64,000 nucleotides of DNA from Octopus sinensis (taxonomy: Eukaryota): the NCBI RefSeq assembly GCF_006345805.1, contig NC_042998.1:64232001-64296000 (forward strand), given 5' to 3'. Each line of letters starts with the position of its first letter. Positions within the stretch are counted from its first letter, which is position 1. A program made the translations under genes and the position numbers. A model generated the notes under the pieces. That model did not search any database, was not told where the DNA came from, and saw only the letters and a list, made by a program, of their open reading frames with translations. This document shows positions 1-61,945 of the stretch, one piece after another.

Positions 1-423
1 AAATCCACTCAATCACACGCAGATTTTACCATAACGATAAATACGCGTGTGGTTCAATTGATACATCGACGTTATAATTCAAATGCCCCAACTAACAGCG
101 CGCCAAACTATCACGGAAAAACAAAACAGCATTTAGAATAAATGCAGCATAATTATAATTAATTAATAAGGTGAGGAAAAGATACTAATTTAATAGTATA
201 TTATTCAACACCAGTGGCCTAGTGCTCCGAGAAACTGGATTATTATAATATTTTATAACATATATAATATTTTTACAAATTAAATATAAGAGAGTGGTCA
301 CTATATGGCTCACTCTAGCACCAGTTAATCCAAAAGGTTTCAACACGAAAATACATGTTTCCATGAAAGTCAGTACGATTGTTAGCTCACACGGACAGGG
401 CAAATAAAAAATAAAACAAAATA

Positions 424-519
424 CAGATTATTTTGGGACAATTGTTTCGCTATTAATGAATTAAATGTAATTTTACTTACAAAAAAATCCATTTGTAGCT
501 CGTCGGCCAAAACTATCTG
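424..519 (-). ncRNA. Type-I hammerhead ribozyme (core mutated, CCGACGA)
   Basis: Minus strand: CAGAU-AG-UUUUGG CCGACGA GCUA...UAGC GAAAC AAUU GUC CCAAAA-UA-AUCUG. Stem I and stem II pair; stem III is minimal with a palindromic loop. Confidence 0.8.
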
Positions 520-956
520 GATGAAATCCACTCAATCACACGCCAGATTTTACCATAACGATAAATACGCGTGTGGTTCAATTGATTACATCCGACGTTA
601 TAATTCAATGCCCCAACTAACAGCGCGCCAAACTTTCACGGAAAACAAATACAGCATTTAGAAATAAATGCAGCATAATTATAATTAATTAATAAGGGTG
701 AGAGAAATAGATACTAATTTAATAGTATATCTATTCAACACCAGTGGCCTAGTGCTCCGAGAAACCTGGATTATTATAATATTTTATAACATATTATAAT
801 ATTTTTACAAAATAAATATAAGAGAGTGGTCACTATATGGCTCACTCTAGCACCAGTTAATCCAAAAGGTTTCAACCACGAAAATACATGTTTCCCATGA
901 AAGTCAGTACGATTGTTAGCTCACACGGACAGGGCAAATAAAAAATAACAAAAATA

Positions 957-1052
957 CAGATTATTTTGTGACAATTGTTTCGCTATTAATGAATTAAATG
1001 TAATTTTACTTACAAAAAAATCCATTTGTAGCACGTCAGCCAAAACTATCTG
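957..1052 (-). ncRNA. Type-I hammerhead ribozyme (core CUGACGU)
   Basis: Minus strand: UUUUGG CUGACGU GCUA...UAGC GAAAC AAUU GUC ACAAAA. The consensus with the copy at 424-519 gives canonical CUGACGA. Confidence 0.8.
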
Positions 1053-1515
1053 GATGAAATCCACTCAATCACACGCCAGATTTTACCATAACGATAAATA
1101 CGCGTGTGGTTCAATTGATTACATCCGACGTTATAATTCAAATGCCCCAACTAACAGCGCGCCAAACTTTCACGGAAAACAAATACAGCATTTAGAAATA
1201 AATGCAGCATAATTATAATTAATTAATAAGGGTGAGAGAAATAGATACTAATTTAATAGTATATCTATTCAACACCAAGTGGCCTAGTGCTCCGAGAAAC
1301 CTGGATTATTATAATATTTTATAACATATTATAATATTTTTACAAAATAAATATAAGAGAGTGGTCACTATATGGCTCACGTTATTTTTTATTTGCCCTG
1401 TCCGTGTGAGCTAACAATCGTACTGACTTTCATGGGAAACATGTATTTTCGTGGTTGAAACCTTTTGGATTAACTGGTGCTAGAGTGAGCCATATAGTGA
1501 CCACTCTCTTATATT

Positions 1516-1578
<63 letters not shown>

Positions 1579-4165: not shown

Positions 4166-4832
4166 ATATATGAAATATGAAGCATGCCCAAATACTGACA
4201 TACAAAATGCAATACTATATTCGACACGCGGCAATATCCACCCAAATGTACATGTTATAAGTTTGTTATAAAACAAGATATGCACTGGTCGAGACAGATT
4301 AAGGAATAATTAGGAATACGAACGTAATGCCTTTAAGTAACCATTTCTTTTTGAACAGCTAGTATACTAAACAGAATATGTGAGAATCATGTAAGGAGAC
4401 TAAGATTAAAATATCATACTTAATAACACACCGTCTTTTTTATTAATTTCGTACAAATGATATTTTAAACAGGTGCATGCTAATTTAGCAGATAATGGAA
4501 ACGAAACCAATTTATATAAAAACTTAATCACAATTCTGTTTCATGTGAAATTCCTAATGGAATATGAAACGTTTGTATTCAACGGATTATATATATATTT
4601 CATTTTATTTTTCTTTTGCATGCATTTAATGTACTCGAAACAAGTGATAAGCTGCCGCGTATTCGAATAACCTATAATGGTATGCTAAAAGTAATGCCAC
4701 TCTCACTCTCTCTCTCCCTCTCTCTTTCTCTCTCTCTCTCTCTTTCTCTCCAGAAATCCAGAGTTATTCAGTGATATAAGCCATTAGTTAACGCATTCTG
4801 TTTCTAAATTTTTGTTAATCCAATGAGTTAGG

Positions 4833-4928
4833 ATACTCCAGTTTTGTTACAGTATAGCTATACACGTGTGTATAAATACACACACATACGCATACACAGA
4901 CACAGACACACACACACACACACATACA

Positions 4929-4979
<51 letters not shown>

Positions 4980-5137
4980 CTGTAAATGTAATATATGACA
5001 ATTATTCGGTAGCCATGATGAAACTTGGAGTTTCGGATATGGGGGTGGAAATCCACTCCGCCATCTCTTCAGTTATCCGGCCATCGGAAAAAGCATTTTA
5101 TGATGGCTACCGAATAATTGTCATATATTACAGTTAC

Positions 5138-5182
<45 letters not shown>

Positions 5183-5301
5183 ATATATATGTGTGTGTGG
5201 TGTGTGTGTGTGTGTGTATGTGTGTGTGTGTGTCTGTGCATGCGTATGTGTGTGTATTTATACACACGTGTATAGCTATACTGTAACAAAAGCTGGTGTA
5301 T
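4833..5301. mobile_element. Foldback (inverted-arm) insertion with an HHR motif in the spacer
   Basis: 4833-5023 is the reverse complement of 5096-5301, including the internal (CA)n/(TA)n and the end TATACACACGTGTATAGCTATACTGTAACAAAA. Confidence 0.8.
5017..5078 (-). ncRNA. Hammerhead motif (slightly degenerate)
   Basis: Minus strand: GGAUAA CUGAAGA G-AUGG..GUGGA UU UCCAC..CCAU-AUCC GAAAC UCCAA GUU UCAUC. Confidence 0.6.
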
Positions 5302-5328
5302 ATATATGTGCATGTATGTATGTATGTA

Positions 5329-22867: not shown

Positions 22868-23770
<903 letters not shown>

Positions 23771-23790
23771 ATCTATCTATCTATCTATCC

Positions 23791-23842
<52 letters not shown>

Positions 23843-23863
23843 GTCTATCTATCTATCTGTCTA

Positions 23864-24419
23864 TCTAACTGCCTGCCTATATACATAATTATTCAATACA
23901 GGTACATGAATAAATATGTACACACATAGGAGAAGGATTTGCATGTGTACCTGTTACAAGGACATAGCATAGCGCCTAGTATATTTTTGTAACGATCAAG
24001 AACACCGTTTGACACATGCATTGTTTCGCATAAAAGTTTCCTTGAACAAAGCTCTTAATGTTCCCATTGCCATTATCTATTAACCTGAAATAATTCCCCG
24101 CTGAGTGCGAGTAGAGTGTTTTCTCTATCCAGTTGTGTCGCCGGCGATGTTCTGCTAGGCCATGCTGTCAATATTTAGGACCGCACCCGAGTGAGTTCCA
24201 CTTCCTGTAAACGATTGCATTGGCACATTGAAAATATTTACAAATACATAACTCATGCTCTCCAGTTACGAACACATACGCATAATGACTTGATTTGTTT
24301 ATTTTTACTTGTTGTTTGTCATTTGTATGCGTGCATGCGTGCATACACACAAATCTCACATCATACTCGTATGTATAAATGTATTTGTCTTTGTATGAGT
24401 ACATTCGTGTGAATATTCG

Positions 24420-24470
<51 letters not shown>

Positions 24471-24495
24471 ATCTATCTATCTATCTATCTATCTA

Positions 24496-24548
<53 letters not shown>

Positions 24549-25125
24549 GTCTATCTATCTATCTGTCTATCTAACTGCCTGCCTATATACATAATTATTC
24601 AATACAGGTACATGAATAAATATGTACACACATAGGAGAAGGATTTGCATGTGTACCTGTTACAAGGACATAGCATAGCGCCTAGTATATTTTTGTAACG
24701 ATCAAGAACACCGTTTGACACATGCATTGTTTCGCATAAAAGTTTCCTTGAACAAAGCTCTTAATGTTCCCATTGCCATTATCTATTAACCTGAAATAAT
24801 TCCCCGCTGAGTGCGAGTAGAGTGTTTTCTCTATCCAGTTGTGTCGCCGGCGATGTTCTGCTAGGCCATGCTGTCAATATTTAGGACCGCACCCGAGTGA
24901 GTTCCACTTCCTGTAAACGATTGCATTGGCACATTGAAAATATTTACAAATACATAACTCATGCTCTCCAGTTACGAACACATACGCATAATGACTTGAT
25001 TTGTTTATTTTTACTTGTTGTTTGTCATTTGTATGCGTGCATGCGTGCATACACACAAATCTCACATCATACTCGTATGTATAAATGTATTTGTCTTTGT
25101 ATGAGTACATTCGTGTGAATATTCG

Positions 25126-25126
<1 letters not shown>
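23864..25126. repeat. Near-identical direct duplication (706-bp offset) bounded by (TATC)n
   Basis: 23864-24420 matches 24570-25126. Identical ORFs at 24168 and 24874. Confidence 0.9.
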
Positions 25127-25161
<35 letters not shown>

Positions 25162-25162
25162 C

Positions 25163-25218
<56 letters not shown>

Positions 25219-25229
25219 CTCTCTCTCTC

Positions 25230-25284
<55 letters not shown>

Positions 25285-25789
25285 AATAGCTAGCAAGTTA
25301 TACACAAAGTAGACGTGAAAACATTTGTGTACAAAAGATTCAGTGTGTAACACCGAACATAATACCTCATTACTGTTTCAATGTAACAGCTATTAAGTGC
25401 CTAAAGAAATAGGATAAACGGATAGGTCAACATTTGTCAGAAGTCAATTATAAAAACAGTGAAAAGAATTTATTGTGTTCAACAATACAAAGTAAATATC
25501 ACACCATCGTTCTGAGGATCATCAGTAGAAATATTTAGTGAGATGATTTACACCTATTGTATACTCGACAGAATTAATTGGAAAAAATCCTTTAAGAGGT
25601 GATTCGTTTCGATTCATTATCCTATGCGTATGTTTATCTCATGCTCAGCTGTTTTAATAATTATTTTAGACTATGAATTAGAACCTACGCCACTGAAGAC
25701 AGATAGTTTTAATAAGCTTTCCTACAGTTGTATTATCTCTTTAGGCAAGCCAAAGAAATCTCCTTGTGCGTTGGATAAAAAAAAAACAA

Positions 25790-28175
25790 TAATAAAAACA
25801 GCGATGGACTTCTTTTGGATTCCAAAAGATGTTCAACGAATGTTCATGTCGTACTACGACAACCTGAGGATGAGATTTACAGCAGGAAAGTTCACAACGG
25901 AGTGGCAACGGCTTGAAATAGGTATTGCAGCCGGATTCACGATATCAGTCATCTTGTTCGTGCTAGTCATGGAAATGCTACTCAGATCTACAAACTGGGA
26001 GAAAGCTGTTACAAAGACACAATTAAGGGCTTTTATCGACGACGTAACTATATTATCGGAAAGTAGAGAAGTAGCAGGGGGAACGTTAGAGCGGTTGGAC
26101 GAACTGATAGGATGGGCCAAGATGAAATTCAAAGCCAAAAAATCTCGAAGCGTGGCTTTCGTGAAAGGAAGGCAAGAAGAAGTGAAATTCAGGAAGTGAA
26201 GACATACCAACGATGGTATAGAAACTTATTAAATGATAAGAAGCAAGGGAAAGAAACACACGAGTTAGTAGAACAAGGATTAAAGGTAATTGACAGAACA
26301 ACACTGCCAGGGAAATTCAAGTGTTGGATTCTGCAATTTGAGCTGTACCCAAGGATAATGTGGCCATTGCAACTGTACGAAATAGCCTCGAGTAGAGTAG
26401 AAAGGTAGGAGAAAAGATGCAGTGTGTTTATCAGAAAATGGCTCGGTCTGCCGAAACCACTGAATACAACTGCACTATATGGAAAATCCGTGCTGCAACT
26501 ACCAATAGCATCAATCGCCGAAGAATATAAGGCAGGAAAGGCAAGGACAGTAATGATGCTAAGGTATTCAAAAGATCAGAGCATTCGGGAAAATCCTCCA
26601 AAGGTACGAACAGGGAGGAAATCGAAGGCGGAAGAGGCAGTAAACAGTGCGATCGAAAAACTCAGGCACGCAGATATAGTCGGAGCGACGCAAGAAGCTA
26701 GAACCGGCCTAGGGTCGCAAAATGTCAGGCCATTTTGCAAGAGCAGTGTAAAAGAGATGAAAGAGGCAGTGGTATACGAAGTGAGAAAGGAGGGAGAAGA
26801 AAGGCGAAATGTACATTTGGTACAATGCAGTCAACAGGGACTTTGCCTGAGATGGGAGGAGTATGTGATCAACCACAGAATATCATGGAAGGAACTTTGA
26901 GCTTGGGAACAAACAAGAACATCCTTCCTGATCAAGTCTACCTTCAACGTTCTACGCTCACCGGCGAACTTAGTCCGGTGGAATTTAAAAACAACCGATG
27001 AGTGTAGATGCGGAGAGAAATCGACGGTTAAACATGTTCTGTCAAGTTGCAGACTAGCACTTGAAAGATATACTTGGCGCCATAATCAAGTCCTCGGCGT
27101 CATAAGCGCAGCACTCAAGGAAAAAATCGAGAGGTACAATAGGGGAGAGTACCCAAAATTAGAAAAGCGCAGGAAAATATACTTCCACAAGGGAAAAGGT
27201 TATAAAACCAGGCCTACAAATACAGTATTCGAGATGGACGAAAGATGGAAGGGATACTGGGAGGTGGCCACGGACTTGGAATGACAAGTAATATTTCCAC
27301 TAATAAAACCAACAAAAAAACCGGATTTAGTTCTATGGAACAGAGACCGGAGAATGGGAATTTTACTAGAAGTGACAGTACCTTGGGAAGAGAACATCGG
27401 CAATGCAGAGGACCGAAAGGAGAAGAGGTATGAAAAGCTAATCGAAGAATGCAGAGAACAGGGATGGAATGTGGAATATTATCACCTGGCAGTGGAGGCT
27501 AGAGGCTTCATTGAAAAGAAAATGACAACGCTTTTCAAAAGAAGATTTGTTTTTTCTAGACTCGAGCTGCGTAAACTAATAAGGAAAGTACAAGAGGCGG
27601 TCGAAAAAGTCAGCTTCTATATATGGCTGAAGCGGGAAGACCGAAAATGGCTTGAAAGTCATAAACACACCGACGGGAAATAAGATCATTAGGTGAGACA
27701 AGCTGAGTGACAGTTGACGGTCGTGTAGAAGAATTGCGGGCTAAAACTTCGCGCCTTCACTAGTCAGTTAAGGTGAGACAGTGTCACGTGACAACTTGCT
27801 TGGGCTGCCTGCTGGAGCCTTTGCGGCAGGTAATTAAAGGCAAAAGTTTGACAAGACAGTCAGTCCCTGGCTGACGCTCGCTGACGATACATCGAAGAGG
27901 TCAGGGAACAGAAGAAAGAAGAAGAAAGAAGATATGCACCCAACAACAGAACTGAAGACACCTAGGAAAGTGGGGACCCCGCCACGTCTAAACGGTAGAG
28001 AGGTAGGGGCCGAAACCGGACGTGGTTCCTCCTAATGATGTCTTGAGCTAACTGGATCCTATAAAGGATCTGTTGAGGTAGCGGACCACGAAATATGGTT
28101 GTAATTCCTATAGCAATCTAAGTGTAACTTAGTTGTAGAAATGATAACATTCCACCGATTTTGTTCTAACAAATG
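25790..28175 (+). mobile_element. 5'-truncated Hero-like RLE non-LTR retrotransposon (RT + CCHC + restriction-like endonuclease), pseudogenised
   Basis: WQRLEIGIAAGFTISVILF, AFIDDVT, KFKAKKSRS, LPGKFKCW, RKWLGLP, CRCG..KHVLSSC..RYTWRHNQVL, KPDLVLW..LLEVTVPWEE. Stops or frameshifts near 26195, 26406, 26898 and 27281. ORF ends at 27683, followed by a ~490-bp 3' UTR. Confidence 0.85.
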
Positions 28176-57806: not shown

Positions 57807-58331
57807 CTGTTCTTATTTCCCTATTCCAGAAACTACTGGTACTTTATATATGTAAAAACAATTTTTATACTTGTATTTATATTCTCATAAGTGTTTAAAA
57901 TACATAGACATTATAATGCCTAATAGGTGATGCATACCACCTCTTGATCCCATCCATTTTCTTCTTGTCGTATATATATATATATATTATATATATATAT
58001 ATATAATATATATATATATATGCACCCACACTTGTCCTATGTTTCTTCTTATATGTATTCGTAAGTTATGTATGCATGTAAGTAAGTATGTATGTTTGTG
58101 TGTGGATGTGTACAGTTGTGTCTTTCAGTTGAAGGGTTGAAAAGGCATGTCTAAAGACTTGATACTGCGCCACCTGTTCCTTCTGCTGGCTGGCTCAGCT
58201 GTGTATTATGCAATAGAATGTGCAAGTCTTTAGCCGCGCTCAAGAACCACACAAGAGCCTCATATTGCATCATCTATGACACATTTCAAAGATTCTTTCT
58301 ATCAATCACTTTCACTGTATACAACAAAGCA

Positions 58332-58374
<43 letters not shown>

Positions 58375-58559
58375 TAAGCAATAAGGGTTTAGCAACGAAT
58401 TGCCTTACCACATACCGAATTTAGAAATAGCAGTCAAAGGGTTATAGCTATTTCTTCTACTAAAAAGGGAGATCTCAGTAAAAACAGCAATTGGAAGGCT
58501 GACACAAACAGGTAAGAGAGAATGAATTAACTGCAATCTATCAAACATTTTTAAAGTTA

Positions 58560-58666
58560 TCCACGGACGTACGTTTCGAAATCAAGTTTTTAGGAAAGCA
58601 TAAGAATTAAATATTAAATATTAAATAATTCTATCTTACCGAAACTTCTTTTCTCTTCAGCGTAGA
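58560..58666 (-). ncRNA. Type-I hammerhead ribozyme (canonical core) in the inverted arm
   Basis: UCUACG CUGAAGA GAAA-AG-AAGUUU...AAACUU-GA-UUUC GAAAC GUAC GUC CGUGGA. Confidence 0.88.
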
Positions 58667-59171
58667 ATACTATAATCATAAATTTAAAAATGTTTGATAG
58701 ATTGCAGTTAATTCATTCTCTCTTACCTGTTTGTGTCAGCCTTCCAATTGCTGTTTTTACTGAGATCTCCCTTTTTAGTAGAAGAAATAGCTATAACCCT
58801 TTGACTGCTATTTCTAAATTCGGTATGTGGTAAGGCAATTCGTTGCTAAACCCTTATTGCTTAGTATTACTTAAATTTTCCTCGAATGAGGCTTTTACAT
58901 GCCGAAGACTACTTGGTGTAATGATAATTATTCCAAATTAATTAATTTCACCCTTCATTATTACGGATAACCATATTGTATCTCAGTAGATGACCACAGC
59001 ATCTTGTTTTGGCTACACGCGGGTGGGGAGGGGCTGTTGACACAATCGTTTCATTCACAAATTTGAATTCGGTGATACTAGTTGCGGATTCTGGCTCGCT
59101 CTGATACTGAGTTGAGTTGGTGCCTCCTAGTATCTCAAAATTCAATATATAATCATTTATGATTATAGTAT

Positions 59172-59278
59172 TCTACGCTGAAGAGAAAAGAAGTTTCGGT
59201 AAGATAGAATTATTTAATATTTAATATTTAATTCTTATGCTTTCCTAAAAACTTGATTTCGAAATGTACGTCCGTGGA
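59172..59278 (+). ncRNA. Type-I hammerhead ribozyme (GAAAU variant)
   Basis: As at 58560-58666 but with GAAAU GUAC GUC. Predicted cleavage after 59272. Confidence 0.82.
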
Positions 59279-59772
59279 TAACTTTAAAAATGTTTGATAG
59301 ATTGCAGTTAATTCATTCTCTCTTACCTGTTTGTGTCAGCCTTCCAATTGCTGTTTTTACTGAGATCTCCCTTTTTAGTAGAAGAAATAGCTATAACCCT
59401 TTGACTGCTATTTCTAAATTCGGTATGTGGTAAGGCAATTCGTTGCTAAACCCTTATTGCTTAGTATTACTTAAATTTTCCTCGAATGAGGCTTTTACAT
59501 GCCGAAGACTACTTGGTGTAATTGATAATTATTCCAAATTAATTAATTTCACCCTTCATTATTACGGATAACCATATTGTATCTCAGTAGATGACCACAG
59601 CATCTTGTTTTGGCTACACGCGGGTGGGGAGGGGCTGTTGACACAATCGTTTCATTCACAAATTTGAATTCGGTGATACTAGTTGCGGATTCTGGCTCGC
59701 TCTGATACTGAGTTGAGTTGGTGCCTCCTAGTATCTCAAAATTCAATATATAATCATTTATGATTATAGTAT

Positions 59773-59879
59773 TCTACGCTGAAGAGAAAAGAAGTTTCGG
59801 TAAGATAGAATTATTTAATATTTAATATTTAATTCTTATGCTTTCCTAAAAACTTGATTTCGAAATGTACGTCCGTGGA
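59773..59879 (+). ncRNA. Type-I hammerhead ribozyme (GAAAU variant)
   Basis: Same as 59172-59278. Predicted cleavage after 59873. Confidence 0.82.
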
Positions 59880-60373
59880 TAACTTTAAAAATGTTTGATA
59901 GATTGCAGTTAATTCATTCTCTCTTACCTGTTTGTGTCAGCCTTCCAATTGCTGTTTTTACTGAGATCTCCCTTTTTAGTAGAAGAAATAGCTATAACCC
60001 TTTGACTGCTATTTCTAAATTCGGTATGTGGTAAGGCAATTCGTTGCTAAACCCTTATTGCTTAGTATTACTTAAATTTTCCTCGAATGAGGCTTTTACA
60101 TGCCGAAGACTACTTGGTGTAATTGATAATTATTCCAAATTAATTAATTTCACCCTTCATTATTACGGATAACCATATTTTATCTCAGTAGATGACCACA
60201 GCATCTTGTTTTGGCTACACGCGGGTGGGAAGGGGCTGTTGACACAATCGTTTCATTCACAAATTTGAATTCGGTGATACTAGTTGCGGATTCTGGCTCG
60301 CTCTGATACTGAGTTGAGTTGGTGCCTCCTAGTATCTCAAAATTCAATATATAATCATTTATGATTATAGTAT

Positions 60374-60480
60374 TCTACGCTGAAGAGAAAAGAAGTTTCG
60401 GTAAGATAGAATTATTTAATATTTAATATTTAATTCTTATGCTTTCCTAAAAACTTGATTTCGAAACGTACGTCCGTGGA
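60374..60480 (+). ncRNA. Type-I hammerhead ribozyme (canonical core)
   Basis: CUGAAGA at 60380-60386; GAAAC GUAC GUC at 60463-60474; stem I UCUACG/CGUGGA. Confidence 0.88.
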
Positions 60481-60796
60481 TAACTTTAAAAATGTTTGAT
60501 AGATTGCAGTTAATTCATTCTCTCTTACCTGTTTGTGTCAGCCTTCCAATTGCTGTTTTTACTGAGATCTCCCTTTTTAGTAGAAGAAATAGCTATAACC
60601 CTTTGACTGCTATTTCTAAATTCGGTATGTGGTAAGGCAATTCGTTGCTAAACCCTTATTGCTTAGTATTACTTAAATTTTCCTCGAATGAGGCTTTTAC
60701 ATGCCGAAGACTACTTGGTGTAATTGATAATTATTCCAAATTAATTAATTTCACCCTTCATTATTACGGATAACTATATATATATATATATATATA

Positions 60797-61192
60797 AAAT
60801 TTAATAAGAGTAGAAATTGATATTAATCAATTAAAACCAGTGGCCTGGCATATTAAAAAAATCCGAAGATTAAAATATTTTTACATACAAAATTTAGAGG
60901 ACTGACCACTGAAAGTGGATGGTCAACATGCTAGATATAGACGTCAAATCGCCATGTTCCACAAAATAGATTGCGGGTATTCACATGCGTGGATAATAAC
61001 AATCGAAACTGATCAGTACATAAGTAACGACTTTTATTTCGTATATTTTCATTTGTCTTGCTTATTTTTAAGACTTTGGTTCGTGTTGGTTTTTTATTTG
61101 AGAACATATTTTTTGTGAAAAATAGCGATTTGACGTCTATATCTAGCATGTTGACCGTCCACTTTTAGTGGTCAGTCCTTTAAATTTTGTAT

Positions 61193-61198
<6 letters not shown>
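60797..61198. mobile_element. Short inverted-arm element in (TA)n containing the 3' half of an HHR
   Basis: ~60878-60968 is the reverse complement of ~61108-61198. GAUUG...CAAUC GAAAC UGAUCA GUA at 60969-61018. Confidence 0.7.
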
Positions 61199-61223
<25 letters not shown>

Positions 61224-61945
61224 CATAAGTGGACATAGTCCCAGACGCTCCAGACAATTCCAAAGTTGTGCTCTGCATTTACATATAAATAAAAGTTAGA
61301 CGGTGCCCACGCAGCAATATTATCCTCAATAAGAGCTGATGATCATCTTTTGGTATAGCCAACGCCGAAAATTACGTTGTATCGTGATTATCCATTAACC
61401 CATTAGACTACGCCTACATTTTCGTGATATAACTTTTGCGTAGCCTCACCTGTTGGACAGTTTTGTATCTCCACTCCACATCCTATACTTTTTGCATGCT
61501 TTATGTGATTCTAAGTCTAACGTATCAAAATGTACTTACAGTATGGAATATTTTAGCTTAAGACCGTTCAGTGCATTTATACATTTCATTTGCTATTATG
61601 TCCGACTTTTAACGTATTTTCAATATATTTTTTTTGTCTCTTGATGAGGATTATATCTCACAGTGTTTCAATGAACGTATTGTATTCAATTTATTTTTTA
61701 CTTACAGCCAAAGCTTATCTTCTCAGGTCCATTTACTTTCATTATGGAATTCTTTGATCAATACCTATCTTATCTATGCACTTATGTCTCCGTTCCTGGA
61801 AGTATTTTATGGCTTTGCTTTGTTTTACCACACACTCAATGCGTCGACATGAATGTGTTTATTTTATTCCTTTTCTTCTCATATTGACATTTTACGAACC
61901 AATATGCTAACATTAAGCTTTCATTTCCAACTATCGAAATTGTTC

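What the first reader, a model, noticed from the sequence alone, without database searches (positions are those of the whole stretch)
58560..58700. Inversion breakpoints sit next to predicted ribozyme cleavage sites
Seen: in the 601-nt array the direct arm begins (58683) 10 nt downstream of the GUC-site position in the monomer. In the 533-nt array the inverted arm (1381) begins ~20 nt downstream of it. In the 4833-5301 foldback the right arm (5096) begins at about the cleavage site. The arms point 3'-outward in ribozyme sense. Known: PLE insertions often carry inverted 5' segments. Inference: HHR cleavage defines the 5' end of the RNA template, and both target strands prime reverse transcription. 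The fourth case (60797-61198) does not fit as well.
Basis: inference. Interest (0 to 1): 0.75.

Follow-up and report, generated by a model that had tools for sequence, protein, structure and literature searches.

The report
Retrozyme inversion breakpoints: not ribozyme-defined
Non-coding repeats carrying a hammerhead-like motif sit head-to-head in TA microsatellites, a pattern that Penelope-type enzymes likely make by copying RNA from both cut DNA ends, and in about 150 sampled copies the inner breakpoints do not gather at the predicted ribozyme cut, so the near-matches in this window are likely chance or a minor pause site.

Summary
The coordinates are right. In the 601-nt array the direct arm starts 11 nt after a hammerhead-like GUC site. 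In the 533-nt array the inverted arm starts at +21. In the 4980-5139 foldback one arm starts about 2 nt before the site. The ribozyme is only predicted: Rfam Hammerhead_1 scores 13.8 bits against a gathering score of 34.

Inversion-junction ends within +1..+25 number 5 of 94 (3.9 expected) and 8 of 88 (4.1 expected). Pooled, without the window's own ends, this is 11 of 180 against 7.9 expected (P=0.18). About half or more of the arms read through the cut site. So cleavage does not define the template's 5' end. At most there is a weak recurrent hot spot 5-21 nt downstream.

The second inference holds. Both outer ends lie at fixed start zones next to (TA)n. The two arms almost always use different zones about 100 nt apart (44 of 47; 40 of 44). 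This is the known Penelope-like footprint: inverted 5'-truncated copy, "tail" at one end, both strands extended.

Other agents of this scan reported the same architecture on other DNA. This is a new member of a known kind.

The parts
58334..58373 (.). (TA)n microsatellite flanking the outer (3') end of the inverted arm: left half of the target
   Evidence: TRF row 58334-58373, (TA)20; sequence
58371..58683 (-). Inverted arm of the 601-nt family. It covers monomer positions 484 (inner, 5' end, = -118 from the cut) to 195 (outer, 3' end, start zone S1: GCTTAGTAT|(TA)n). It holds one whole hammerhead-like motif.
   Evidence: 100% complementary to 59155-59467 (I2); mapped; motif coordinates
58566..58664 (-). 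Hammerhead-like motif inside the inverted arm (CUGAAGAG at 58660->58653, CGAAACGUACGUC at 58578->58566). This is most of the finding's span and forms the asymmetric 'loop' of the foldback.
   Evidence: regex coordinates; loop of 117 nt between arms 58371-58560 and 58678-58867 (I4)
58683..58684 (.). Head-to-head junction. The inverted arm ends at 58683 and the direct arm begins at 58683/58684 (+11/+12 after the predicted cut), with 1 nt shared.
   Evidence: read from the sequence
58684..60779 (+). Direct tandem array of the 601-nt family, 3.5 units. Its outer (3') end lies in start zone S2 (GGATAAC|TATAT, monomer position about 298-305), followed by (TA)n at 60775-60797.
   Evidence: D8-D10 spacing 600-601; mapped; sequence
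59172..59278 (+). Hammerhead-like motif of the first full unit: helix I, CUGAAGAG, a roughly 76-nt helix II, CGAAA, palindromic UGUACG, GUC ending at 59272. Repeated with GUC ending at 59873 and 60474.
   Evidence: Rfam RF00163 full-length alignment, 13.8 bits, E=1.4, below gathering score 34; the fold shows helices I and II; coordinates
1..1380 (-). 533-nt family array, which runs on beyond the window start. Ribozyme sense is the - strand. GUC ends at 970 and 437. The inner (5') end at 1380 is +125. The CUGANGAG box is mutated in both window copies (CUGACGUG, CCGACGAG).
   Evidence: D13-D17 spacing 532-535; sequence; genome copies
1381..1531 (+). Inverted arm of the 533-nt family. The inner end is at +21. 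The outer end at monomer position about 171 abuts (TA)n at 1510-1569.
   Evidence: 98% complementary to 799-949 (I5)
4980..5139 (-). Third family (F3), a 160-nt foldback: arms 4980-5017 and 5103-5139, and a loop at 5018-5102 with a weak hammerhead-like motif (CUGAAGAG 5072->5065; CGAAAC..GUU about 5022). Both outer ends lie at the same site (CATTTACAG|(AT)n). It sits in a larger palindrome, about 4829-5305.
   Evidence: sequence; family copies; no Rfam hammerhead hit
60798..61196 (-). Fourth family: a 399-nt unit with roughly 80-nt inverted arms (60888-60966 and 61112-61190) between two (TA)n tracts.
   Evidence: sequence; the foldback recurs as a unit in many genomic copies

Best explanation
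These are insertions of non-coding, hammerhead-motif-bearing repeats (animal 'retrozymes') into (TA)n microsatellites. They were likely made by a Penelope-like reverse transcriptase-endonuclease that would extend both cut DNA ends on the same RNA from two fixed start zones about 100 nt apart. The inner breakpoints would then be simply where the two cDNAs stopped and were joined.

Shown directly:
- the head-to-head, 3'-outward layout
- the TA-microsatellite target
- fixed outer ends
- one arm ending in each of the two start zones
- inner ends spread over the unit, with most arms reading through the predicted cut site.

Inferred:
- the enzyme
- that one RNA (possibly a circle, because arrays of many near-identical units arise per event) serves both strands
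- that the weak cluster 5-21 nt 3' of the cut reflects pausing at the foot of the folded hammerhead's helix I, or a minority of cleaved templates.
For: Target and outer ends:
- 601 family: outer ends cluster at monomer position 195/204 or 290-310, next to (TA)n. The junction string CCTTATTGCTTAGTATATATATA occurs 535 times in the genome and 0 times in the reversed control.
- 533 family: the analogous string occurs 572 times. F3: 649 times.

Head-to-head frequency:
- 16 of 40 best-scoring loci.
- 47 of 87 and 44 of 59 unbiased anchored insertions.

One arm per zone:
- Partners of arms anchored at 195 end at 270-312 in 44 of 47 cases.
- Partners of arms anchored at 290 end at 161-203 in 40 of 44 cases.
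- In the unanchored sample 14 of 15 pairs are mixed. Singles use zone 1 in 16 of 19 cases, so independent choice has P=4e-10.

Same template:
- The two inner ends lie within 25 nt of each other in phase in 23 of 47 junctions of the 601 family (4.0 expected).

No link to the cut site:
- Junction ends in +1..+25: 5 of 94 and 8 of 88. Pooled without the window's own ends: 11 of 180 against 7.9 expected, P=0.18.
- Read-through of the site: 44 of 87, 38 of 59 and 26 of 44 arms.

Literature:
- A PLE enzyme cleaves and extends both strands, starts at two adjacent internal sites, prefers AT-rich targets, and does not need ribozyme cleavage (PMC11167929, main text read).
- PLE insertions carry an adjacent inverted 5'-truncated copy and a 'tail' often at one end only, and (TA)n is a preferred target of the Naiad clade of PLEs (PMC8557442, passages).

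The genome holds many GIY-YIG matches: 147 of 150 scored candidates passed, with open frames up to 883 aa.
Against: - No autonomous Penelope-like element was linked to these families. The six GIY-YIG loci I could read share no sequence with them, and I did not confirm an adjoining RT.
- The distance between start zones (about 100 nt) is larger than the 30-40 nt 'tail' described for PLEs.
- Phase agreement of the two inner ends is weak in the 533 family: 8 of 44 against 4.2 expected.
- A modest excess of ends just 3' of the cut exists: all ends in the 601 family 10 of 134 against 5.6 expected (P=0.054); partner arms in the 533 family 7 of 44 against 2.1 expected (P=0.004). Cleaved templates may therefore contribute.
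- Breakpoints were taken from BLAST ends, good to about +/-5 nt. I used the window's own units as reference, so diverged subfamilies are mapped less exactly (for example L102).
- No RNA data were available.
Confidence: 0.7

Rival explanations
1. One reading: hammerhead self-cleavage creates the 5' end of the RNA template, so that cDNAs run off there and inversion breakpoints sit just downstream of the NUH site.
For: - Window cases at +11, +21 and about -2.
- Partner arms of the 533 family: 7 of 44 in +1..+25 against 2.1 expected.
- Long arms of the 601 family: 5 of 44 in +1..+25 against 1.8 expected, window included.
- In F3, by eye, 6 of 28 direct-arm ends lie within -12..+2.
- Ribozyme-defined 5' ends are known for R2 elements (recalled, not read here).
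Against: - Junction ends pooled without the window: 11 of 180 against 7.9 expected, P=0.18.
- Direct arms of the 533 family: 1 of 59 in +1..+25.
- About half or more of all arms cross at least one site, and 22 of 87 cross at least two.
- Near-symmetric junctions, the class most likely to mark a physical template end, centre near positions 100, 75 and 430-475. Only one (L090, 16|30) is near the site.
- In each window pair the other arm ends far from the site (-118, +125, -85).
- In vitro, ribozyme-dead mutants insert normally, and no reads begin or end at the site (PMC11167929).
Confidence: 0.05
2. A minor-pathway or pause version: a small share (under about 10%) of cDNAs stop 5-21 nt 3' of the cut. 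Either the folded hammerhead's helix I stalls the reverse transcriptase, or a minority of templates are cleaved. This is compatible with the best explanation.
For: - Recurrence next to the window's own breakpoints: 3 of 43 within 21+/-4 in the 533 family (0.73 expected, P=0.036); 6 of 132 within 11+/-5 in the 601 family (2.4 expected, P=0.035).
- 5' ends of the 601 family are enriched on the predicted 3' strands of local hairpins (0.405 against 0.343, p=0.005). The main hot spots are at 101-120 and 441-460.
- Few ends fall inside the hammerhead region itself (histograms).
Against: - The hairpin enrichment is absent in the 533 family (p=0.66), and with a global circular fold (p=0.52).
- The P values near 0.035 are post hoc and would not survive correction.
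- These stretches are also A/T-rich, so microhomology to (TA)n is an alternative for single insertions.
Confidence: 0.3
3. Snap-back: only one DNA end primes. The cDNA's 3' end folds back and the enzyme copies the nascent cDNA outward, giving the second arm.
For: - 23 of 47 junctions in the 601 family are near-symmetric, with 0-3 nt overlaps or short loops, for example CTTCTACT-AAAA-AGTAGAAG in L064.
- The window's F3 copy has identical outer sites on both arms and inverted duplication of about 150 nt of flanking DNA. This is what copying back through the primer would give.
Against: - The tailed arm contains about 100 nt (196-298 in the 601 family; about 200-290 in the 533 family) that the other arm lacks. 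So at least the tailed arm cannot be a copy of the other.
- A snap-back from the common start zone should give same-zone pairs. These are rare: 2 of 47, and 1 of 15.
- Many junctions join distant phases. The window's own is -118|+11.
Confidence: 0.15
4. DNA-level palindrome formation or an assembly artefact, unrelated to retrotransposition.
For: - Long inverted repeats are error-prone in assemblies (noted in PMC8557442).
- The contigs laid did not bridge the window's junction.
- The F3 palindrome includes flanking DNA.
Against: - The same architecture appears at dozens of independent loci, with fixed outer ends in (TA)n, variable inner ends, and a strict one-arm-per-zone rule. Random misassembly or replication slippage would not produce this.
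- Contigs from other runs show many different near-symmetric head-to-head joints of this repeat (table 5).
Confidence: 0.03

Closest known systems
Animal non-LTR retrozymes (Cervera & de la Pena 2020, PMC7229834, passages read; Li, Clavereau & Pollet 2026, bioRxiv 10.64898/2026.07.22.740005, abstract and outline read)
   Same: - Non-coding, AT-rich tandem repeats, each carrying one type-I hammerhead motif with a short palindromic helix III.
- Many copies per genome.
- Proposed to be mobilised by Penelope-like elements.
   Different: - Units of 533-601 nt are longer than the roughly 170-400 nt reported.
- Helix II is about 76 nt long in the 601 family.
- Self-cleavage and circular RNA were not tested here.
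- The passages I read do not describe insertion into (TA)n with head-to-head arms for retrozymes.
Penelope-like element insertion architecture (Craig et al. 2021, PMC8557442, passages; Frangieh et al. 2024, PMC11167929, main text)
   Same: - High 5' truncation and (partial) tandems.
- An inverted 5'-truncated copy abutting the 5' end.
- An extension ('tail') at one end only.
- AT-rich or (TA)n targets.
- Both DNA strands cleaved and extended.
- Two adjacent internal RT start sites.
- Ribozyme cleavage dispensable.
   Different: - No ORF in these repeats.
- The 'tail' is about 100 nt rather than 30-40 nt.
- The paper saw no difference in start site between strands. Here, the two arms of one insertion almost always use different zones.
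L1 twin priming (Ostertag & Kazazian 2001; recalled, not read here)
   Same: Both target strands prime on one RNA, giving an inverted 5' segment joined head-to-head by microhomology.
   Different: - In L1 the second primer anneals at variable internal sites upstream. Here both arms start at fixed zones.
- The template repeats, so the arms overlap in content.
Ribozyme-defined 5' ends of R2 and other non-LTR elements (HDV-like ribozymes; recalled, not read here)
   Same: [quoted passage not shown]
   Different: Here the breakpoints do not gather at the cut, and most cDNAs read through it.

Membership tests
Type-I hammerhead ribozyme | Conserved core boxes CUGANGA and GAAA, and an NUH cleavage triplet, in type-I order | tested here: met
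   - 601 family: CTGAAGAG in 250 of 253 units; CGAAA-CGTAC-GTC in 201 of 204.
- 533 family: CTGA(C/G)GAG in 48 of 61 units; CGAAA-CAATT-GTC in 82 of 89.
- Both 533 copies in the window are mutated in the first box.
Type-I hammerhead ribozyme | Helices I and II closing the core (G10.1-C11.1), and a short palindromic helix III typical of animal motifs | tested here: met
   - Hand pairing, and an MFE fold showing helices I and II (energy z-score -1.13, not significant).
- Palindromes ACGUACGU and ACAAUUGU at helix III.
- The feature is described in PMC4209133 (passages).
Type-I hammerhead ribozyme | Score at or above Rfam's gathering threshold (RF00163) | tested here: not met
   - 13.8 bits against 34, E=1.4.
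- No hit at gathering score in the whole window.
- None for the 533 copy or F3.
Type-I hammerhead ribozyme | Self-cleavage at the predicted site | not testable with these tools
   No RNA run on record. The runs available are contigs, which cannot show RNA ends.
Animal non-LTR retrozyme | Non-coding tandem units, each with one hammerhead, dispersed in many copies | tested here: met
   - Arrays of 601 and 533 nt.
- At least 971 and 885 first-look candidate places.
- No ORF of 120 aa or more within the arrays.
Animal non-LTR retrozyme | Expressed as linear and circular monomer RNA | not testable with these tools
   No RNA holder listed.
Penelope-like (PLE-type) insertion footprint | An inverted 5'-truncated copy abutting the 5' end, with arms 3'-outward | tested here: met
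   47 of 87, 44 of 59 and 16 of 40 loci.
Penelope-like (PLE-type) insertion footprint | Two adjacent RT start sites, with the extension ('tail') on one side only | tested here: met
   44 of 47 and 40 of 44 partner arms end in the other zone. 14 of 15 pairs are mixed. The spacing of about 100 nt is larger than the published 30-40 nt.
Penelope-like (PLE-type) insertion footprint | AT-rich or (TA)n target | tested here: met
   - 41 of 42 outer flanks of inverted arms are TA-rich (601 family); only 23 of 43 in the 533 family.
- 28 of 40 single insertions have TA-rich 5' flanks.
Penelope-like (PLE-type) insertion footprint | A cognate autonomous RT + GIY-YIG element sharing the 3' module | tested here: inconclusive
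   GIY-YIG matches are abundant (147 of 150 scored; frames up to 883 aa). The six loci read share no sequence with the four families, and an adjoining RT was not checked.

The most novel reading that the evidence does not exclude
The two arms of each insertion almost never share a start zone, and in the 601 family half of the junctions stop at the same phase even when the arms differ by whole turns. The boldest reading is that a dimeric Penelope-type enzyme loads one small RNA, possibly a monomeric circle with exactly one copy of each start zone, and that its two subunits copy it at the same time from the two cut DNA ends. Genomic junctions would then be a fossil record of this two-headed reverse transcription. 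The weak cluster 5-21 nt 3' of the cut would be the footprint of the folded hammerhead acting as a roadblock rather than as a cutter.
Probability: 0.25. Interest if true: 0.6.

Novelty: new member of a known kind. Interest (0 to 1): 0.3.

Why it matters
The role of hammerheads in Penelope-like elements and retrozymes is an open question. A genomic footprint tying breakpoints to the cut site would have shown that cleavage shapes the template.

What the copies do record, in hundreds of events, is the Penelope-type mechanism itself:
- a TA-microsatellite target
- two fixed start zones, one per arm
- inner stops that are often shared.

This gives a cheap natural data set for testing models of two-strand priming and of circular versus linear templates.

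Tried and rejected
- Rfam at gathering score over the window: no family. At E<=10 over 58300-61400: no ribozyme. At E<=10 over the first 200 nt of the unit, looking for a second ribozyme near the position-100 hot spot: none.
- RNA evidence: no RNA holder listed, so cleavage and circles could not be examined.
- Laying contigs of four runs on 58250-59150: no listed piece spans the junction at 58683, and contigs of this high-copy repeat are short. No conclusion on the junction.
- Linking to an autonomous element: the six GIY-YIG loci showed no similarity to the four families, and only degraded frames of 102-186 aa.
- A Pfam scan of window ORFs found only an RVT_1 fragment at 25603-26199. A follow-up call failed on stop codons and was dropped.
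- Structure as predictor of breakpoints: the global circular fold gave no enrichment (p=0.52). The local-hairpin model was positive for the 601 family only (p=0.005 against 0.66). A first attempt timed out.
- A/T-richness around the ends: no enrichment.
- Helix-I-mediated snap-back for F3: rejected, because the copies hold two copies of +1..+15 plus a separate strand a.
- Literature: the search 'twin priming' + 'Penelope' gave 3 off-topic papers (listing only). In two searches I found no paper plotting breakpoints against the hammerhead site.

Full report
WHAT IS THERE

The finding's span (58560-58700) is the centre of a head-to-head structure. An inverted arm at 58371-58683 is the exact reverse complement of 59155-59467. 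It meets a direct tandem array of 601-nt units running from about 58683 to 60779. Both outer ends abut (TA)n.

Each unit carries a type-I hammerhead-like motif on the array's sense strand:
- helix I
- CUGAAGAG
- a helix II of about 76 nt
- CGAAA
- a palindromic (U/C)GUACG
- GUC.

GUC ends at 59272, 59873 and 60474, and at 58566 on the minus strand inside the inverted arm. Rfam's Hammerhead_1 model aligns full-length to 59172-59278 with the same core assignment. It scores only 13.8 bits (gathering score 34), E=1.4, in a 161-nt search. Nothing passes at gathering score. The fold shows helices I and II, without a significant energy.

Among genomic copies the core is very well kept:
- 601 family: CTGAAGAG in 250 of 253 units; CGAAA-CGTAC-GTC in 201 of 204.
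- 533 family: CTGA(C/G)GAG in 48 of 61 units; CGAAA-CAATT-GTC in 82 of 89.

A short palindromic helix III is the stated hallmark of animal and PLE hammerheads that work as dimers (PMC4209133, passages). So the ribozyme is a good prediction, but it is untested.

THE OBSERVATION

- 601 family: the direct arm begins at +11 (58683/4, equivalent to 59283).
- 533 family: the inverted arm (1381) begins at +21.
- Foldback 4980-5139: the right arm begins about 2 nt before a weak GUU site.

The arms point 3'-outward. In each pair the other arm ends far from the site (-118, +125, about -85).

G000 holds at least 971 and 885 first-look places for the two array families. To avoid choosing loci by their structure, I anchored on the string formed by the commonest outer end plus (TA)n. 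This string has 535 hits for the 601 family and 572 for the 533 family, with 0 in the reversed controls. I took the first hits in positional order: 87 for the 601 family (80 newly fetched plus 7 already held) and 60 for the 533 family (1 censored at the locus edge). Ends come from BLAST against the window's own units and are good to about +/-5 nt.

Results for the 601 family:
- 47 of 87 anchored arms have an abutting inverted arm.
- 43 arms stop before the first cut site, 44 cross at least one site, and 22 cross at least two.
- Ends within +1..+25:
  - anchored arms: 6 of 87 (3.6 expected)
  - partner arms: 4 of 47 (2.0 expected)
  - both ends of inverted pairs: 5 of 94 (3.9 expected, P=0.35)
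  - all ends: 10 of 134 (5.6 expected, P=0.054).

Results for the 533 family:
- 44 of 59 anchored arms have an inverted partner.
- 38 of 59 anchored arms and 26 of 44 partner arms cross the site.
- Ends within +1..+25:
  - anchored arms: 1 of 59 (2.8 expected)
  - partner arms: 7 of 44 (2.1 expected, P=0.004, window included)
  - junction ends: 8 of 88 (4.1 expected, P=0.055).

Pooled junction ends without the window's own two are 11 of 180 against 7.9 expected, P=0.18. The breakpoints are therefore not gathered at the cut.

Against my reading, there is a small recurrent excess next to the window's own breakpoints:
- 3 of 43 within 21+/-4 in the 533 family
- 6 of 132 within 11+/-5 in the 601 family.

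Each has P about 0.035 and is post hoc.

WHAT THE COPIES DO SHOW

1. Nearly all insertions lie in (TA)n.

2. Outer ends are fixed. In the 601 family they lie at position 195/204 ("zone 1") or 290-310 ("zone 2"). In the 533 family they lie at 290 or about 161-203.

3. The two arms of one insertion almost always use different zones:
- 44 of 47 partners of arms anchored at 195 end at 270-312.
- 40 of 44 partners of arms anchored at 290 end at 161-203.
- In the unanchored first sample 14 of 15 pairs are mixed. Single insertions use zone 1 in 16 of 19 cases, so independent choice has P=4e-10.

4. In the 601 family the two inner ends agree in phase within 25 nt in 23 of 47 junctions (4.0 expected). 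Some agree although the arms differ by whole turns, such as L057 and L110. In the 533 family this is weak: 8 of 44 against 4.2 expected.

5. The main hot spots are near positions 95-110, 73-85 and 414-490 of the 601 unit, not at the cut.

A pre-specified local-hairpin test places 601-family ends preferentially on 3' strands of predicted hairpins (p=0.005). It fails for the 533 family (p=0.66) and with a global circular fold (p=0.52). The cause of the hot spots therefore remains open.

THE OTHER TWO CASES

The 160-nt foldback at 4980-5139 belongs to a dispersed family (F3). F3 has two outer sites about 75 nt apart and the same tail-on-one-side rule.

In an anchored sample of 30 loci I read the junctions by eye from the printed sequences, so the positions are approximate and 28 were interpretable. 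They spread from about +62 to -135. There are clusters near the cut (6 of 28 within -12..+2) and, more strongly, at the hammerhead's 5' edge (10 of 28 within -61..-85).

The window's copy is unusual. Both arms end at the same site, and about 150 nt of flanking microsatellite and unique DNA are also inverted-duplicated.

The 399-nt unit at 60798-61196 is a foldback that recurs as a unit in many copies.

MECHANISM

The layout matches what is described for Penelope-like elements:
- 5' truncation
- tandems
- an adjacent inverted 5'-truncated copy
- a "tail" often at one end only
- (TA)n as a preferred target of the Naiad clade of PLEs (PMC8557442, passages).

It also matches the one biochemical study (PMC11167929, main text read):
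- The enzyme cleaves and extends both strands.
- It starts at two adjacent internal RNA sites.
- It prefers AT-rich DNA.
- Ribozyme-dead templates insert normally.
- No reads start or end at the cut.

I therefore read the structure as a two-strand ("twin") priming product on one RNA, with one arm per start zone. The inner breakpoint is where the cDNAs stopped and were joined with 0-3 nt of overlap or a few filler bases.

Still inferred are the enzyme's identity, the use of a single (possibly circular) template, and the reason for the weak cluster 5-21 nt 3' of the cut. That cluster could be a stall at the foot of helix I, or a minority of cleaved templates.

GIY-YIG matches are abundant in this genome, but I could not tie any autonomous element to these families.

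COMPARISON AND NOVELTY

These are new members of the animal non-LTR retrozyme kind, with a Penelope-type insertion footprint. They have longer units and a longer "tail" than published examples. Other agents of this scan reported the same architecture in this and other genomes. One of them noted that an arm starting at the cut was not matched by other copies; my counts agree.

Papers seen:
- PMC11167929: outline and main text.
- PMC8557442, PMC7229834, PMC4209133: passages.
- bioRxiv 10.64898/2026.07.22.740005: abstract and outline.
- L1 twin priming and R2 ribozyme processing: recalled, not read.
- Supplements: none opened.

Noticed in passing
window 4829-5305: The F3 foldback copy sits in a palindrome of about 470 bp that also duplicates, in inverted order, the flanking (AT)n(GT)n microsatellites and about 45 nt of unique DNA. 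Both arms end at the same outer site, unlike 9 of the 10 other copies inspected. This looks like copying back through the primer into flanking DNA, or a DNA-level palindromisation.
   Followed up: partly
601-nt unit positions about 95-110 (window 59367-59382 and equivalents); loci L040, L047, L064, L076, L078, L083, L092, L108 and others: This is the strongest breakpoint hot spot of the 601 family. Both arms of short insertions stop here, often as near-perfect small palindromes. It coincides with the 3' strand of a predicted hairpin (84-110) next to a 9-bp hairpin (111-143). The cause is unknown.
   Followed up: partly
window 60798-61196 and window 1-1380: The 399-nt foldback family and the 533-nt family share short 3'-module similarity (GGCCACTGG ... 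CTCTTATTAA-like; BLAST matches of 82-93% over 15-28 nt). The start zones of all four families are preceded by a C(A/T)C(C/T)CTTAT-like motif, read by eye, which may be a shared recognition module.
   Followed up: partly
window 25603-26199 (+): An open frame of 198 aa matches Pfam RVT_1 (E=5e-10). Further open frames follow at 26409-27683 without Pfam hits. The type of retroelement was not determined.
   Followed up: partly
G000:C2:147700173-147700436 and C2:147701445-147704958: A GIY-YIG match (304-aa open frame) lies about 1 kb from a 533-family array. I did not examine whether they belong together.
   Followed up: no
window 23791-24796: Two 300-nt copies, 100% identical and spaced 706 nt apart, lie among (TATC)n arrays at 22868-25279. 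This is another young tandem repeat that I did not study.
   Followed up: no
533-family copies in L120-L179: Most variation in the first hammerhead box is at the one free position: 37 CTGACGAG and 11 CTGAGGAG. A further 9 copies read CCGATGAG, which also changes the conserved U. The window's own two copies carry core mutations.
   Followed up: partly
locus L201 (G000:C1:13791756-13794778): An F3 copy and a copy of the 399-nt foldback family lie side by side in the same (TA)n tract, so TA microsatellites collect nested insertions of several families.
   Followed up: no
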